Numbered from the stretch's first letter, positions 1 to 6,867 are shown. The stretch is 64,000 nt of DNA from Gammaproteobacteria bacterium (GCA_017999615.1 JAGNLM010000003.1:166793-230792), one strand, 5' to 3'. Notes: a model not told the origin generated them from the sequence alone. Program-made: numbers and translations.

Positions 1-200
1 AGCGTCTGGGCCAAGTCCTTCGTGTAGCCATCGCGCACAGCTGACGTACCCTGCAGGATCATTCCGAGGATGAGAGCGATAATGACGAGGACTACTACGA
101 CTTCAAAGAGGGTGAAGCCGGTGATTCTTCTTGGGTTCTCCTTGGGTATACCCGAACATAGGTCGCGCGTAAGGCGGGTGCCGCTCAACGCAAGCCTCAC
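1..200 (-). CDS. Prepilin-type N-terminal domain protein, partial (3' end runs off the window; start uncertain)
   Basis: Reverse-strand translation gives ...ENPRRITG|FTLFEVVVVLVIIALILGMILQGTSAVRDGYTKDLAQT. This is the class III signal-peptide motif G/FTLxE followed by a hydrophobic helix. It lies directly downstream of the 254..1324 pilin-like gene on the same strand. The only in-frame canonical starts (GTG 200, TTG 188, ATG 251) give unusually long leaders. Confidence 0.6.
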   Translation of the reverse strand, partial: MRLALSGTRLTRDLCSGIPKENPRRITGFTLFEVVVVLVIIALILGMILQGTSAVRDGYTKDLAQT

Positions 201-253
201 CTCCAAAAGGGAGAACAGTTGATTCCCATGGCTCAAACCGTGGTTGTGCATAA

Positions 254-4192: not shown

Positions 4193-6013
4193 ATGGACGG
4201 GACGAGGCGCCGAAGGCGGGACGCCGGCGCGGCCTTGCTGCTGGTCGTGGCGGCGTGCGTCGTGATAGCCACGGCGATGCTGGCCGGAAGGCTCTCGGCC
4301 GGCGGGATCCGCCAGCTCCTGGACCGCCGGACGGCGGCCGCACTCGCCGAGGCCCGGGCGGCCCTCATCGGCTACGCGGCCTCCGACCCGAACCGTCCCG
4401 GCGAACTGCCCTGTCCGGACTTCGACGGCGACGGCCGGGTCACGGTGGCCCAGGACTACCGGGGCACGCGCTGCCGCACCCTCACGGGCTGGCTGCCCGC
4501 CTACACCCTGCGCCTGGAGGACCTTCGCGACGGTGCGGGCGAGCGGCTCTGGTACGCGGTGACCGAAGAGTACCGTGCCGGCGCCTCGGCGGCCCTCAGC
4601 AGTGAGACGCCGGGGCGGCTCACGCTCGATGGGCGCGACGACGTGGTCGCGGTCCTCTTCGCGCCCGGGGAGGCACTCGAGGGGCAGGCGAGGGGGAGCG
4701 GAGCGACCGCCGACCTCGCCATCGGCGACCACCTGGAGGGCGGGAGCGCGGCACCAGGGGCCCGGGACTTCGTGACGGGCGGGGCGGGGGACGTCCTTGC
4801 CGGCGGGGTGGCGACGAACGACCGGGCGCTCGCCATCACCCGGGCCGACCTCATGGCCGTGGTGGAGCAGCGGGTCCTCTCCGAGGTGGTCCTGGCGCTC
4901 GGGGAGTACGCCCGCTGGACGGACCGCGGAGACGGGGGCGCCTTCCCCTGGCCGCTCGTCCTCGGCACGGACCCGGGGACGGAGGGGGTCCCCGGGCGCC
5001 TGTCGCGCCAGGGGCGGCTTCCCTTCCACGCCCCCGGGGCCTGGTTCGCGACCGACTTCGTGGTCGACGCCTGGGAGATCTCCGGCGGGACGGTGCGCCT
5101 GGGGCGGGGCGGGGCCGGCACCCTCGACACCGGGGTGCTCGAGCGCGGTGGCGGGCAGCGCGTAACCTCCGACGCCGACGCCGACGCCGACGCCGACGCC
5201 GACGCCGACGCCGGGGCCGGGGCCGATGCCGGGCGCTGCGCCTGGTCGAACCTGCAGACCGTGGCCTGCCATGGCGAGGCCGTCGAGACCTGCGCCGGGC
5301 CGGGGGCGGCCTGCGTCCTGCCGCCCGGCGTCGCACGCCGGGTGTGGCAGTTCGACCTCGTCTTCACCGGAGCGGCCACAGTCCGCCCGCCGACGGCGGC
5401 TGGCCACGCCACCCGCGACGTGTCGGTCGTCTCCGGCGTGGTCGCGGCCGGGGAGGGACCCCTCGTGCGGGTGACCGACTACGACGCCGCGGGCGGAGAG
5501 TTGGGCTCGGGGGAGTTGTGGGCGGACACGGGAGGCTGCGTCGGGACCGTCCGGGTCTCCGGCATCCGGCTCTACCCGGCCCTGCCGGAGTGGTACGCGA
5601 AGAACGGCTGGGACCGCCAGGTCTTCCTGGCGCTGGCCGCCGGAGCCGCCCCGCGTGCGGCGCCCGGAGCAGCGGCCGAAGCAGCGCCCGGAGCGGGACC
5701 GGCGCCCGGAGAGGCACCGGCGCCGCGTGCCGCGGCCGGACGCCGGTGCCGGGCTGGCGTCGACTGCCTCACCCTGCGGGACCGGGCCGGGCAGCCGCTC
5801 CGGGACGACGTGCCCGCGCTCCTGCTGGCTGCCGGCCCACCTCTTCCTGGCCAGGAGCGCGACCCCGGGGCCAGCGGTGCGGCTGGCTGCACCCCGGGCG
5901 GCCTCTGCGCCTACCTGGAGGAGGACAACGCCAACGGGGACGACGCCTTCACCGTGGCGGCGCCGGGACCCCGTTTCAACGACCGGACCCGGCCCCTGGA
6001 AGGCGCGCCGTGA
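4193..6013 (+). CDS. Membrane-anchored LPCPD-family protein P2 (pilin-like fold implied, no prepilin cleavage motif)
   Basis: MDGTRRRRRDAGAALLLVVAACVVIATAML is an Arg-rich N-terminus plus one TM helix, with no G-F-T-L-x-E. Shares ELPCPDFDGDG, ALLLAAGPPLPG, EEDNANGDDAF and RFND with P1 and P3. The stop overlaps the next gene's GTG (GTGA). Confidence 0.7.
   Translation: MDGTRRRRRDAGAALLLVVAACVVIATAMLAGRLSAGGIRQLLDRRTAAALAEARAALIGYAASDPNRPGELPCPDFDGDGRVTVAQDYRGTRCRTLTGWLPAYTLRLEDLRDGAGERLWYAVTEEYRAGASAALSSETPGRLTLDGRDDVVAVLFAPGEALEGQARGSGATADLAIGDHLEGGSAAPGARDFVTGGAGDVLAGGVATNDRALAITRADLMAVVEQRVLSEVVLALGEYARWTDRGDGGAFPWPLVLGTDPGTEGVPGRLSRQGRLPFHAPGAWFATDFVVDAWEISGGTVRLGRGGAGTLDTGVLERGGGQRVTSDADADADADADADAGAGADAGRCAWSNLQTVACHGEAVETCAGPGAACVLPPGVARRVWQFDLVFTGAATVRPPTAAGHATRDVSVVSGVVAAGEGPLVRVTDYDAAGGELGSGELWADTGGCVGTVRVSGIRLYPALPEWYAKNGWDRQVFLALAAGAAPRAAPGAAAEAAPGAGPAPGEAPAPRAAAGRRCRAGVDCLTLRDRAGQPLRDDVPALLLAAGPPLPGQERDPGASGAAGCTPGGLCAYLEEDNANGDDAFTVAAPGPRFNDRTRPLEGAP
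5171..5212 (+). repeat. (GACGCC)x7 hexanucleotide tandem repeat inside P2, encoding (Asp-Ala)7
   Basis: Seven perfect GACGCC units read directly from the sequence, in frame, followed by GGGGCCGGGGCCGATGCC (GAGADAG). Confidence 0.95.
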
Positions 6014-6867
6014 CGCAGGGCCAGCACCTCCGGGAAGAAGGCTTCTCACTCATCGAGATGGCCGTCGTCGTGGTGATCATGAGCCTCCTCCTCGGGGGGC
6101 TCCTGGGACCGCTTGCGGCCCAGCAGGACGCCCAGAAGACTGCGGAGACCCGGCGTCTGCTCGAGGAGGTGCGGGAGGGCCTGCTCGGGTTCGCGGCGGT
6201 GCAAGGACGTCTGCCGTGCCCGGACCGCCTGGCGGACGGCGACGGTCTGGAGGACCCGCGGGAGGACGGCGCCGACCCGCCCGAGGACGGTTGCGGGGGA
6301 GGGGAGTACGGGGGGTGGGTGCCCTGGGTGACCCTCGGCGTCAGCCCGCGCGACGCCTGGGGCCGGCGGCTGCGCTACCGGGTGACGCGCGAGCTCACCC
6401 GCCGCGTGGGCGACCCGTCGGCGGCCGCCTGTGTGGCGGCCCCCCCTGGGGGAGCCGGCTCCGCTACCGCCTCCGCTTCCTCTTCTGTTGCGGCCTCTCA
6501 CAACCCCTGTACGCTGGAGCTGGGCGACCCCGGTGACATCACGGTCCAGGGGCGGGACCTCGCGACCCGCGCCGAGCGCCTGGTGGCCCGGGAGCTGGCC
6601 GCCGTGGTCCTGTCGCTGGGACCCAATGGCCTCGGAGGGGTCGACGTTGCCGGCGCGCCTCTGCCCCCGCCCGCCGCAGGCGCGGAGGACGAGCTCCGCA
6701 ACCTGGACCTCGACGCCACCTTCGTCGCCCGGGACCGCTCACCCACCGCCTCGGGATGCCGGGACAGCACTGCCGCGGCACCGCCCTGCGAGTTCGACGA
6801 CCTGCTGCTCTGGGTGTCGCCCCACATCCTCTACAACCGCCTGGTGAGCGCCGGGCGGTTGCCTTGA
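6010..6867 (+). CDS. Large pilin-like protein (prepilin N-terminal motif), LPCPD-family paralogue P3
   Basis: GTG 6010 overlaps the P2 stop. VTQGQHLREEG|FSLIEMAVVVVIMSLLLGG. Also RLPCPDRLADGDG, AVVLSLGPNGLGG, RNLDLDATFVARD and CEFDDLLLW. Confidence 0.8.
   Translation: MTQGQHLREEGFSLIEMAVVVVIMSLLLGGLLGPLAAQQDAQKTAETRRLLEEVREGLLGFAAVQGRLPCPDRLADGDGLEDPREDGADPPEDGCGGGEYGGWVPWVTLGVSPRDAWGRRLRYRVTRELTRRVGDPSAAACVAAPPGGAGSATASASSSVAASHNPCTLELGDPGDITVQGRDLATRAERLVARELAAVVLSLGPNGLGGVDVAGAPLPPPAAGAEDELRNLDLDATFVARDRSPTASGCRDSTAAAPPCEFDDLLLWVSPHILYNRLVSAGRLP

What the first reader, a model, noticed from the sequence alone, without database searches (positions are those of the whole stretch)
1..6867. 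Three oversized paralogous pilin-like proteins with a shared LPCPD signature, encoded far from any pilus or T2SS machinery
P1 (254-1324, -), P2 (4193-6013, +) and P3 (6010-6867, +) share the same ordered motifs. First comes an N-terminal hydrophobic helix. Then (Y/E/R)LPCPD(x)D.DG, with a second Cys 20-30 residues later. Next G.LP...L(G)L...D.(W)G....Y.V, then a hydrophobic run ending in G(K/P)(N/P)(G/L).G. This is followed by an acidic block E-x-N-x-D-x-D-x-x-F and a final F(D/N)D. P1 and P3 carry textbook prepilin leaders (G|FTLVEL, G|FSLIEM), but at about 356 and 285 aa they are much larger than structural pilins. A fourth prepilin-type gene runs off the window at 1-200, and a fifth (12471-13211) lies 5.6 kb away. 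No ATPase, platform, secretin or alignment genes are adjacent; pilBCD is 47 kb away. The genes are interleaved with three exported proteins. I do not recognise the LPCPD motif set from the classical minor pilins (FimU/PilVWXE, GspHIJK, MshBCDOP). This could therefore be an undescribed minor-pilin or tip-complex family, or a distinct fibre module.
Basis: partly seen in the sequence, partly recalled or inferred. Interest (0 to 1): 0.7.

Follow-up and report, generated by a model that had tools for sequence, protein, structure and literature searches.

The report
Unnamed minor pilins of MSH-like pilus
The three large "LPCPD" pilin-like proteins are real, related to each other and belong to a large unnamed family, but they are not orphans: they are the built-in minor pilins of a widespread, uncharacterised type IV filament machine whose motor genes lie just off the left edge of the window.

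Summary
P1, P2 and P3 are homologous, and the LPCPD motif set is conserved across a large family (about 1,500 clusters at 50% identity with E <= 1e-30). Beyond the N-terminal methylation motif, the family has no Pfam or NCBIfam model, no close solved structure and no literature trace.

The claim "far from any machinery" is a window-edge artefact. A 97.8%-identical contig shows the platform gene and three accessory genes within the 4 kb left of coordinate 1.

Of 59 related loci with enough upstream DNA, 49 carry this cassette directly upstream of the P3 homologue: MshE-type ATPase, platform, X538, X205, usually also secretin, TPR protein, X195 and P2. Four more lack only a detectable X538.

Downstream there is usually a PrsK-like histidine kinase, then a separate pilin with a sigma-54 promoter. 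In the window this is the "fifth pilin" at 12471-13211.

Best reading: P2 (no Glu5, two modules) and P3 are the tip or priming minor pilins, and pil246 is the major subunit. P1 with the truncated pilin at 1-251 is a hypervariable, low-GC accessory pilin pair.

This is a new variant of a known kind (an MSH-like type IV filament). Interest is moderate.

The parts
1..251 (-). 5' part (83 codons) of 'pil265', a family-A pilin paralogue (motif RYxYLPGD) with leader ...RRITG|FTLFEV. The gene runs off the window. It sits 2 nt downstream of P1 on the minus strand, so it is probably co-transcribed.
   Evidence: Translation. The full 265-aa gene is seen in L004. 31% identical to pil246, E=3e-10. N_methyl 24.3 bits.
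254..1324 (-). P1: 356 aa, canonical prepilin leader (G|FTLVEL), one LPCPD module and a C-terminal extension of about 100 aa carrying DPWGN..Y / S.GPDG motifs. It is the accessory, hypervariable paralogue of P3.
   Evidence: Only 34% and 42% identical to the P1-like proteins in the same slot of L005 and L085, where core proteins are 79-95% identical. GC is 55-60%.
1645..2316 (-). VPLPA-CTERM (PEP-CTERM-type) exported protein, 223 aa. It belongs to the variable slot.
   Evidence: Weak C-terminal match to TIGR03370 VPLPA-CTERM (19.3 bits, below its 25.35 cutoff) and to NF038120. 34% identical to the L005 counterpart. L085 has a different PEP-CTERM protein in the same slot.
2808..3422 (+). Exported protein of unknown function (204 aa by the gene call in L004). 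It is a lineage-specific insert between X195 and P2.
   Evidence: 93% identical in L005. Absent from the cassette in other genera.
3485..3952 (+). DUF3617 exported protein (155 aa), a lineage-specific insert.
   Evidence: Pfam DUF3617, 46.2 bits. Gene call in L004.
4193..6013 (+). P2: 606 aa. The N-terminus RRRRRDAG|AALLLVV is prepilin-like but has no Phe+1 and no Glu+5. One complete LPCPD module (residues about 1-215) is followed by a second long helix, a beta-rich region and a repeated C-terminal block. It contains an (Asp-Ala)n repeat.
   Evidence: hhalign against the P3 family: E=1e-20. Internal repeat: E=7e-10. AF2 model pLDDT 81.9. No Pfam or NCBIfam hit. No PDB fold neighbour. 24 homologues, all named 'hypothetical' or unnamed.
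6010..6867 (+). P3: 285 aa, canonical prepilin leader (G|FSLIEM) and the core LPCPD module. Its GTG start overlaps the P2 stop (GTGA).
   Evidence: AF2 model pLDDT 85.2. Sits directly downstream of the machinery genes in at least 49 of 59 informative loci.
7633..9312 (-). Multi-pass sensor histidine kinase. It is conserved between P3 and the pilin gene and is the probable sensor of the system's two-component regulator.
   Evidence: Found in the same position in 34 loci. HATPase_c. Best NCBIfam match is PrsK at 46 bits, far below its 300 cutoff.
9425..10929 (+). ABC-2-type membrane protein (9425-10192) and a conserved protein of unknown function (10189-10929). Both recur between the kinase and the pilin gene.
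   Evidence: Each is found in 16 loci. ABC2_membrane hits. Also present in L085.
12388..12403 (+). Sigma-54-type promoter TGGCACGGATATCGCA, 68 nt upstream of the pilin ATG.
   Evidence: The only 1-mismatch match in the 64 kb window. 27 of 55 pilin genes in related loci have a match of at least 9 of 11 specified bases within 330 nt upstream, most of them 68-102 nt before the GFTL codon. Sigma-54 response regulators lie upstream of the secretin in 5 loci.
12471..13211 (+). pil246: family-A pilin (leader MTRRQHG|FTLVEI, motif RYRAVPGD, a C-terminal Cys pair) and the candidate major subunit of the filament.
   Evidence: N_methyl 32.7 bits. 39% identical to the pilin that directly follows P3 in Denitratisoma (E=6e-24). 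A pilin of this family lies downstream of P3 in 36 of 56 loci with enough DNA.
53488..54410 (-). pilD prepilin peptidase (coordinates approximate) of the separate pilBCD locus. It is the only prepilin peptidase seen in the window and the likely processing enzyme.
   Evidence: Peptidase_A24 and A24_N_bact domains. No peptidase was noted in the cassette loci whose gene calls were read.

Best explanation
P2 and P3, with the extra paralogue P1, are the system-specific minor pilins of a conserved but uncharacterised type IV filament machine of the MSH/T4aP/T2SS branch.

Gene order of the machine:
- A sigma-54 response regulator and an MshM/ExeA-like ATPase come first in some loci.
- Then secretin, TPR protein, MshE-type ATPase (with a c-di-GMP-binding MshEN domain) and platform.
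- Then X538, X205 and X195, then P2 and P3.
- Then a histidine kinase, sometimes followed by an ABC-2 protein and an unknown protein.
- Last comes a sigma-54-driven pilin.

Shown:
- The family relationships, the conserved gene order and the presence of the machinery next to the window's own copy.
- The sigma-54 promoter in front of pil246.

Inferred:
- PilD, encoded 47 kb away, cleaves P1, P3 and the family-A pilins after the conserved Gly.
- P2 has a Gly-Ala-Ala-Leu-Leu N-terminus without Glu5, as in GspK and PilX (from general knowledge of those proteins). It caps the filament.
- P3 docks beneath P2 through the shared LPCPD module, and the P2-P3 pair primes polymerisation of the major pilin pil246.
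- P1 and pil265 are a second, horizontally exchangeable or diversifying pair of minor pilin and pilin, sharing a variable slot with a PEP-CTERM-type protein. They probably give the fibre an alternative surface or specificity.
- The most likely output is a c-di-GMP- and two-component-regulated adhesive pilus.
For: Family is real:
- BLASTP and profile comparisons and the 25-member alignment.
- 1,518 representative clusters at E <= 1e-30.

Machinery next to the window's own copy:
- L004 is 97.8% identical to window 1-6867. Upstream it carries the platform gene, X538, X205 and X195.
- L085 shows the full set: secretin end, TPR protein, MshEN/T2SSE ATPase, T2SSF platform, X538, X205, X195, variable slot, P2, P3, kinase, ABC-2 protein.

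Conserved synteny:
- 49 of 59 loci with at least 7 kb upstream have ATPase + platform + X538 + X205. Four more lack only a detectable X538.
- Denitratisoma DHT3 shows the whole operon.

Minor-pilin hallmarks:
- P2/P3 overlap by 4 nt (GTGA) at the end of the machinery operon.
- P2 lacks Glu5 in all 22 aligned homologues.
- Only the N-terminal helix matches solved pilins.

Major-pilin hallmarks of pil246:
- Its own sigma-54 promoter, recurring at a similar distance in many related loci.
- A separate family with a C-terminal Cys pair, low GC, and tandem duplicates in some loci.

Regulation: a conserved kinase lies downstream of P3 in 34 loci and NtrC-type regulators lie upstream of the secretin.

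Peptidase: pilD is present in the window.
Against: - No experiment exists for any member of this system.
- The tip-complex role rests on analogy.
- P2 was not detected in 11 of the 49 complete cassettes by the automated count. About seven of these, mainly Thiobacillus, have no room for it, so P2 cannot be universally required.
- Neither AF2 model has a significant PDB neighbour. There is therefore no structural support for equivalence to GspK, GspI, GspJ or PilVWX.
- The family-A pilin is missing within 10 kb downstream in 20 of 56 loci.
- X538, X205 and X195 could not be matched to PilMNOP, GspLMC or MshIJK by sequence.
- The ATPase scores about equally against GspE and PilB, so pilus versus secretion pseudopilus is unresolved.
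Confidence: 0.65

Rival explanations
1. The machine is a type II secretion-like system. P2, P3 and P1 are pseudopilins of a short periplasmic piston that expels folded proteins through the secretin, not parts of a surface pilus.
For: - Weak GspG-like signal: TIGR01710 scores 25-30 bits for P1 and P3, with P3 aligned over residues 11-124.
- Pfam T2SSG is hit by 4 of 25 family members and by P0013.
- Some sources name homologues 'T2SS protein', 'GspG' or 'PulG'.
- The ATPase catalytic domain scores 340-351 bits against GspE, versus 307 against the PilF catalytic domain.
- No PilT-like retraction ATPase was seen in the cassette.
- Exported proteins are encoded inside the locus in this lineage.
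Against: - All GspG and GspH scores are far below the curated cutoffs, and there are no GspI, J, K, C, L or M hits.
- The ATPase carries an MshEN domain, and the locus has MshN-like TPR and MshM-like genes, as MSH pili do.
- The putative major subunit is large, low in GC, sometimes duplicated and sigma-54-driven, and the P1/pil265 pair is hypervariable. These features suggest surface exposure.
- The exported-protein genes in the locus are lineage-specific inserts.
Confidence: 0.2
2. The LPCPD proteins themselves (P3 type) are the main filament subunit, and the family-A pilins are accessory or belong to another function.
For: - P3 is the one pilin-like gene always present in the cassette, and it was the query.
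- It is duplicated or triplicated in some loci: L055, L056, L063, L077, L082.
- Tandem three-module versions exist.
- The family-A pilin is not found within 10 kb in 20 of 56 loci.
Against: - P3 is translationally coupled to P2 as the last gene of the machinery operon.
- The family-A pilin has its own strong sigma-54 promoter at a recurring distance.
- In Denitratisoma and several other loci the family-A pilin immediately follows P3.
- A 250-290 aa globular module, or three modules in tandem, is hard to pack as a repeating subunit (inference).
Confidence: 0.1
3. One reading: an orphan pilin module, independent of any dedicated assembly machinery and served in trans by the distant pilBCD system.
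For: - Within the 64 kb window the only ATPase, platform and peptidase genes are pilBCD at 53.5-57.4 kb.
- PilD probably is used in trans.
Against: - The dedicated machinery lies within 4 kb of the window edge in a 97.8%-identical contig.
- It is fully visible in L085 and in at least 49 of 59 informative loci.
- The window's pilB and pilC match the cassette ATPase and platform only weakly, at 320 and 194 bits against 620-850 and 260-500 for cassette orthologues.
Confidence: 0.03

Closest known systems
MSHA (mannose-sensitive haemagglutinin) type IV pilus system of Vibrio cholerae (mshI-Q), the 'MSH' class of Denise, Abby & Rocha 2019 (PMC6668835)
   Same: - Encoded at a single locus.
- Gene order secretin, TPR protein, ATPase with MshEN domain, platform mirrors mshL-(M)-N-E-G.
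- An MshM/ExeA-like ATPase lies upstream in some loci.
- No prepilin peptidase was noted in the cassette loci read. The paper reports this for all MSH loci.
- The major pilin gene can sit apart; mshA is a 'loner' in their model.
- Gallionella and Sideroxydans genomes were reported to hold rearranged 'MSH-like' clusters of unknown function (PMC3770913). Whether those are this cassette was not checked.
   Different: - No recognisable MshI/J/K, MshF or MshB/C/D/O/P/Q.
- Three accessory proteins (X538, X205, X195) and the LPCPD proteins have no Pfam or NCBIfam model.
- Only two or three pilin-like genes instead of six or seven.
- The accessory genes follow the platform gene rather than preceding the secretin.
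- The system has its own histidine kinase, NtrC-type regulator and a sigma-54 pilin promoter.
- Homology of P3 or P2 to MshO or MshP could not be tested here.
Type II secretion pseudopilins GspG (major) and GspH-I-J-K (tip complex)
   Same: - Class III signal peptides.
- Weak GspG-type sequence signal.
- One large member without Glu5 (P2), like GspK, encoded next to a smaller partner.
- Genes at the end of an operon with secretin, ATPase and platform.
   Different: - Scores are 3-4 times below the family cutoffs.
- No GspI, J or K hits.
- Foldseek gave no GspK, GspG or GspH match for either model.
- The LPCPD module, with two conserved Cys pairs and the C-terminal ...AGRLP, is unique.
- There is no GspC, L or M.
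Type IVa pilus minor pilins FimU-PilV-W-X-E with PilS/PilR/sigma-54 control of pilA (Pseudomonas aeruginosa)
   Same: - The concept of a priming tip complex of minor pilins, one of which lacks Glu5.
- A major pilin transcribed from a sigma-54 promoter under a dedicated two-component system.
- Prepilin peptidase PilD shared.
   Different: - No sequence match to the Pfam or NCBIfam models for these proteins.
- Two minor pilins rather than five.
- No PilY1.
- The machinery is in one operon.
- The kinase resembles PrsK rather than PilS.

Membership tests
Type IV pilin-like proteins (class III signal peptide, Pfam PF07963 / TIGR02532) | N-terminal G|F(T/S)L(I/V)E cleavage and methylation motif followed by a hydrophobic helix, scoring above the curated cutoff | tested here: met
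   - P1 24.1 bits, P3 23.7, pil246 32.7, against a cutoff of 21.2.
- pil265 24.3 bits.
- All 25 members of A2 match.
- P2 does NOT match. It has G|AALLL with no Phe+1 and no Glu+5, so for P2 this feature is not met by the model and is only pilin-like by homology to P3.
GspG major pseudopilin (TIGR01710 / Pfam T2SSG PF08334) | Full-length match above the curated cutoff (88.85 bits) | tested here: not met
   - P1 30.1 bits (residues 6-55 only) and P3 25.3 bits.
- T2SSG is hit by only 4 of 25 family members, best E=7e-5.
- The PDB profile search matches GspG only over the N-terminal helix.
GspH / GspI / GspJ / GspK minor pseudopilins | Match to TIGR01708, TIGR01707 or Pfam T2SSI/J/K models | tested here: not met
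   - GspH scores 21-23 bits against a cutoff of 80, N-terminus only.
- No GspI, J or K hit for P1-P3 at E <= 0.1.
- Foldseek with the P2 model returned no GspK.
T4aP minor pilins (FimU/FimT, PilV, PilW, PilX, PilE) | Match to the corresponding Pfam or NCBIfam models | tested here: not met
   No hit other than N_methyl and generic N-terminal matches at E <= 0.1.
MSHA minor pilins MshB/C/D/O/P and MshQ | Sequence or profile homology to the V. cholerae proteins or the TXSScan MSH profiles | not testable with these tools
   - No reference sequences or profiles for these proteins were available.
- Indirect evidence only: none of the 120 listed P3 homologues, nor the 24 P2 homologues, is named Msh by any source.
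MSH-type type IV filament system (Denise et al. 2019 model: mshA, E, G, L, M mandatory) | ATPase with an N-terminal MshEN c-di-GMP-binding domain, a platform and a secretin in one locus | tested here: met
   MshEN + T2SSE, T2SSF and Secretin are in L001. NF053729 MshE-related motif scores 47.6 bits against a cutoff of 38. L085 shows the same. For the window itself these genes lie beyond the edge.
MSH-type type IV filament system (Denise et al. 2019 model) | MshM (ExeA-like ATPase) present; MshI/J/K and the MshA-family pilin recognisable; ATPase falls in the MSH clade of a phylogeny | tested here: inconclusive
   - An MshM-like ATPase was found upstream of the secretin in only 4 loci where that DNA was available (TIGR03015, 192 bits against a 324 cutoff).
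- X538, X205 and X195 have no detectable similarity to any model.
- No phylogeny with reference ATPases could be made. NCBIfam scores for GspE and PilB are nearly equal, 496 vs 485 bits.
XrtA/PEP-CTERM regulatory set (PrsK, PrsR, TIGR03015 ATPase) | Scores above the equivalog cutoffs | tested here: not met
   PrsK 46 bits against 300, PrsR 327 against 503, TIGR03015 192 against 324. These are paralogues, not members.

The most novel reading that the evidence does not exclude
The cassette is a distinct, still unnamed class of type IV filament machine, widespread in Beta- and Gammaproteobacteria and also found in Desulfobulbaceae and Magnetococcales.
- It has its own assembly proteins (X538, X205, X195).
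- It has a new modular 'LPCPD' pilin domain that can occur once (P3), twice (P2, P1) or three times in tandem on one N-terminal helix (P0265, P0343).
- In the window's lineage, a hypervariable slot pairs an LPCPD pilin and a family-A pilin with a PEP-CTERM-type protein. This hints at a functional link between this pilus and exosortase-sorted surface proteins.
Probability: 0.3. Interest if true: 0.65.

Novelty: new variant of a known kind. Interest (0 to 1): 0.45.

Why it matters
If the reading is right, a pilus or secretion machine present in many environmentally important bacteria has gone unannotated. Carriers include iron and sulfur oxidisers, denitrifiers, methylotrophs and wastewater Rhodocyclaceae. 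Only its ATPase, platform and secretin are currently recognised. At least five conserved protein families are 'hypothetical': the LPCPD pilins (P3 and P2 types), X538, X205 and X195.

Naming them would improve genome annotation and the classification of 'generic' type IV filament systems. It would also give a compact model with two minor pilins for how tip complexes prime filament assembly. The modular, tandem-repeatable pilin domain is unusual for the superfamily.

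Tried and rejected
- **Curated models.** Pfam and NCBIfam scans of P1-P3 and of all accessory proteins found only N_methyl and sub-threshold GspG/GspH N-terminal matches.
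- **PDB sequence searches.** Searches with P1, the P3-family profile, the P1 C-terminal extension and the X538 profile matched only pilin N-terminal helices or nothing.
- **Foldseek.** Both AF2 models were searched against the PDB. No match had E <= 0.001, and the best TM-scores were about 0.35 to generic pilins for P3.
- **P1 extension as a GspG domain.** I suspected this from memory of the DPWGNPY motif. A sequence search did not support it. The motif is nevertheless conserved in the P1-like proteins of L005 and L085.
- **P1 extension or P2 residues 205-606 as a second full LPCPD module.** hhalign gave only weak alignments, though in the expected register (E=0.19 and 0.023). Only the C-terminal block repeat in P2 is significant.
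- **Literature.** No use of 'LPCPD' in a pilin context. No description of this cassette beyond a passing mention of rearranged MSH-like clusters in Gallionella and Sideroxydans. The supplements of Denise et al. held no species names to check how such loci were classed.
- **Plasmids.** tblastn of P3 against plasmids found no match.

Full report
**1. The observation**

- P1: 254-1324(-), 356 aa.
- P2: 4193-6013(+), 606 aa.
- P3: 6010-6867(+), 285 aa.

P1 and P3 carry canonical class III signal peptides. Pfam N_methyl scores 24.1 and 23.7 bits against a cutoff of 21.2. P2 has no hit in Pfam or NCBIfam.

The three proteins are homologous:
- P1 vs P3: BLASTP E=4e-18 over the full length.
- P2 vs P3: E=7e-4 as single sequences.
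- P2 family vs P3 family as profiles: probability 99.3%, E=1e-20, with P3 residues 8-242 aligned to P2 residues 9-197.

In an alignment of P3, P1 and 23 homologues, these blocks are invariant or nearly so:
- LPCPD and a second Cys.
- G.LPW.TLG and D.WG.R.RYRV.
- S.G.NG.G and DE..N.
- A second Cys pair, in C...CEFDD.
- A C-terminal ...AGRLP.

The motif set is therefore real and is the signature of a family.

One correction concerns P2. The counterparts of the later blocks lie at residues about 148-197.

The truncated gene at 1-251(-) is a prepilin gene. So is 12471-13211.

**2. Size and status of the family**

- P3 has more than 1,800 word-indexed homologues, with full-length matches at about 40% identity. 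The only names given are generic: 'prepilin-type N-terminal cleavage/methylation domain-containing protein', 'type II secretion system protein', 'PulG'.
- A profile search of 1.84 billion representatives found 1,518 clusters at E <= 1e-30 and 9,064 at E <= 1e-10.
- P2 homologues are all 'hypothetical' or unnamed.
- Curated GspG and GspH models give 21-30 bits against cutoffs of 80-89, mostly on the N-terminal helix. Four of 25 members touch Pfam T2SSG.
- AF2 models are confident: P3 pLDDT 85.2 and pTM 0.79; P2 pLDDT 81.9 and pTM 0.81. Foldseek against the PDB gives nothing at E <= 0.001. For P3 only generic pilins appear, with TM about 0.35.
- PDB sequence and profile searches match only pilin N-terminal helices.
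- The string LPCPD does not occur in a pilin context in the searchable literature.

**3. The genomic context overturns 'far from machinery'**

In Denitratisoma sp. DHT3 the P3 homologue closes an operon. The order is:
- Secretin, TPR protein, MshEN/T2SSE ATPase, T2SSF platform.
- Proteins of 517, 206 and 145 aa.
- A 742-aa P2 homologue, the P3 homologue, and a 227-aa pilin.

A metagenomic contig (L004) is 97.8% identical to window 1-6867, and 100% identical over 1-1400. It extends 3,985 bp to the left of the window. That stretch carries the rest of the truncated pilin (265 aa), X195, X205, X538 and the end of the platform gene.

A second relative (L085; core proteins 81-95% identical) shows the whole set:
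- Secretin end, TPR protein, ATPase and platform.
- X538, X205 and X195.
- A variable slot.
- P2 and P3.
- Kinase, ABC-2 protein and an unknown protein.

A scan of one genome per species returned 80 loci. The organisms include:
- Betaproteobacteria: Gallionella, Thiobacillus, Azonexus, Azospira, Rhodocyclus, Methylotenera, Sulfuricella, Ferriphaselus, Jeongeupia, Chitinilyticum.
- Gammaproteobacteria: Ectothiorhodospiraceae, Halofilum, Thioploca.
- One Desulfobulbaceae and one Magnetococcales.

Of 59 loci with at least 7 kb upstream, 49 have ATPase + platform + X538 + X205 directly upstream of P3. Four more lack only a detectable X538. The window's own pilB and pilC at 54.4-57.4 kb are only weak matches to the cassette ATPase and platform, so they belong to the ordinary T4aP locus pilBCD-coaE.

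**4. What lies downstream**

Between P3 and a family-A pilin gene there is a conserved multi-pass histidine kinase, found in 34 loci. In the window it is 7633-9312(-). Often an ABC-2-type membrane protein and an unknown protein follow; in the window these are 9425-10929.

Upstream of the secretin, where DNA was available, lie an NtrC-type sigma-54 activator (5 loci) and an MshM/ExeA-like ATPase (4 loci).

The window's pilin gene at 12471 is preceded at 12388-12403 by TGGCACGGATATCGCA. This is the best sigma-54 promoter match in the 64 kb. In related loci, 27 of 55 pilin genes have a good match within 330 nt upstream, most of them 68-102 nt before the GFTL codon.

The 'fifth pilin 5.6 kb away' therefore belongs to the same system and is the best candidate for the major subunit. 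It is 39% identical to the pilin that directly follows P3 in Denitratisoma. It is 31% identical to the truncated pilin at the window edge.

The HigB/HigA pair at 6892-7620 is an insertion. It is absent from L005 and L085.

**5. Anatomy of the three proteins**

- **P3** is the basic unit: a prepilin helix plus one LPCPD module. Its GTG start overlaps the P2 stop (GTGA), as ATGA does in Denitratisoma.
- **P2** starts with an Arg-rich stretch and then G|AALLL. All 22 aligned homologues have Gly followed by small or hydrophobic residues and never Glu at +5. From general knowledge, this is the pattern of GspK and PilX. After a complete module (to about residue 215) come a second long helix (217-243), a beta-rich region and the repeated terminal block.
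- **P1** is a P3-type module followed by about 100 residues with DPWGN..Y and S.GPDG motifs. These motifs are conserved in the P1-like proteins of L005 and L085. Neither a GspG relationship nor a second-module relationship reached significance.
- **Tandem forms.** Some family members carry three complete modules in tandem behind one N-terminal helix: P0265 (751 aa) and P0343 (631 aa).

**6. The P1 end of the locus is a variable slot**

The table gives amino-acid identity of window proteins to their counterparts in two relatives. A dash means not compared.

| Protein | L005 | L085 |
|---|---|---|
| X195 | 91% | 86% |
| X204 | 93% | - |
| DUF3617 | 88% | - |
| P2 | 79% | 81% |
| P3 | 84% | 86% |
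| P1 | 34% | 42% |
| pil265 | 45% | 38% |
| VPLPA-CTERM protein | 34% | - |

In L085 a different PEP-CTERM protein occupies the slot. GC drops to 55-60% here, against 70-78% in the flanks. This fits cassette exchange or diversifying selection on surface-exposed parts.

**7. Mechanism proposed**

Shown:
- Homology among the three proteins.
- Operon position of P2 and P3.
- Conserved synteny with the machinery.
- The sigma-54 promoter upstream of pil246.
- A PilD gene in the window.

Inferred:
- PilD processes the prepilins.
- P2, lacking Glu5, caps the fibre, and P3 docks beneath it through the shared module.
- The P2-P3 pair primes polymerisation of pil246 by the MshE-type ATPase and platform, through the secretin.
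- The kinase/regulator pair and c-di-GMP set the level of expression and activity.
- P1 and pil265 offer an alternative surface.

I put about 0.65 on this as a whole. Membership of the machine is near certain. The tip-complex role is at about 0.6.

Rivals:
- A T2SS-like secretion pseudopilus (0.2).
- P3 as the major subunit (0.1).
- The orphan-module reading (0.03, effectively refuted).

**8. Comparison with what is known**

The nearest system is the MSH pilus. Shared features:
- The same secretin, TPR protein, MshE and MshG core.
- An MshM-like gene in some loci.
- No peptidase noted in the loci read, and a detachable major pilin gene.

Differences:
- MshI/J/K/F and the MSH minor pilins are not recognisable.
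- The accessory genes are in a different place.
- There are two, not five or six, minor pilins.
- The regulators are PrsK/PrsR-like paralogues.

A 2013 genome paper noted rearranged 'MSH-like' clusters of unknown function in Gallionella and Sideroxydans (PMC3770913). I did not check whether those clusters are this cassette. Nothing else was found.

Homology of P2 or P3 to MshO or MshP could not be tested here.

**9. Verdict**

This is a real, large, unnamed minor-pilin family inside a conserved but uncharacterised MSH-like type IV filament machine. The 'orphan' aspect is an artefact of the window edge. I class it as a new variant of a known kind, with interest 0.45.

Noticed in passing
window 1-2316 (compare L005 2553-5568 and L085 8514-11124): The minus-strand trio of pil265, P1 and the VPLPA-CTERM protein is hypervariable between close relatives (34-45% aa identity, against 79-95% for flanking genes) and low in GC (55-64%). 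In three lineages the slot holds a PEP-CTERM-type protein next to an LPCPD pilin and a family-A pilin.
   Followed up: partly
window 6892-7620: A HigB toxin (Pfam HigB_toxin, 111 bits) and a HigA-like antitoxin are inserted between P3 and the histidine kinase. The pair is absent from relatives L005 and L085. GC dips to 57% here.
   Followed up: partly
window 5169-5231: An in-frame hexanucleotide repeat (CCGACG; 7 perfect units, 10.5 by TRF) encodes (Asp-Ala)n inside P2. The 97.8%-identical contig L004 has 8 perfect units, so the copy number is polymorphic.
   Followed up: partly
window 12333-12379 and 4099-4151: 14-bp direct repeats (CCACGACCCAGAAC, x3.4) lie immediately upstream of the sigma-54 promoter of the pilin gene. 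19-bp repeats (x2.8) lie 40-90 bp upstream of the P2 start. Both may be regulator binding sites.
   Followed up: no
window 7633-9312; L019 3-1403; L024 186-1604: The cassette's histidine kinase, sigma-54 response regulator and MshM-like ATPase each have, as best or near-best NCBIfam match, the PEP-CTERM/exosortase-system paralogue (PrsK, PrsR, TIGR03015). All score far below the cutoffs. Together with the PEP-CTERM proteins inside the locus, this hints at a link between the two systems.
   Followed up: partly
proteins P0265 (751 aa) and P0343 (631 aa) from the representative search: These family members have one prepilin helix followed by three complete LPCPD modules in tandem, an unusual 'beads on a string' pilin architecture.
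   Followed up: partly
window 10985-12271 (-): A membrane-anchored class III nucleotidyl cyclase gene sits between the conserved unknown gene and the pilin promoter. It did not appear among the genes recurring in this position in other loci.
   Followed up: no
window 52839-57368 (-): A standard pilB-pilC-pilD-coaE cluster. This PilB also carries an MshEN domain (78.9 bits).
   Followed up: partly
L024, L026, L029, L036, L067, L071, L073 (Thiobacillus and related loci): These cassettes run from X195 straight into P3 with no room for a P2 gene, so P2 is not a universal component of the system.
   Followed up: partly
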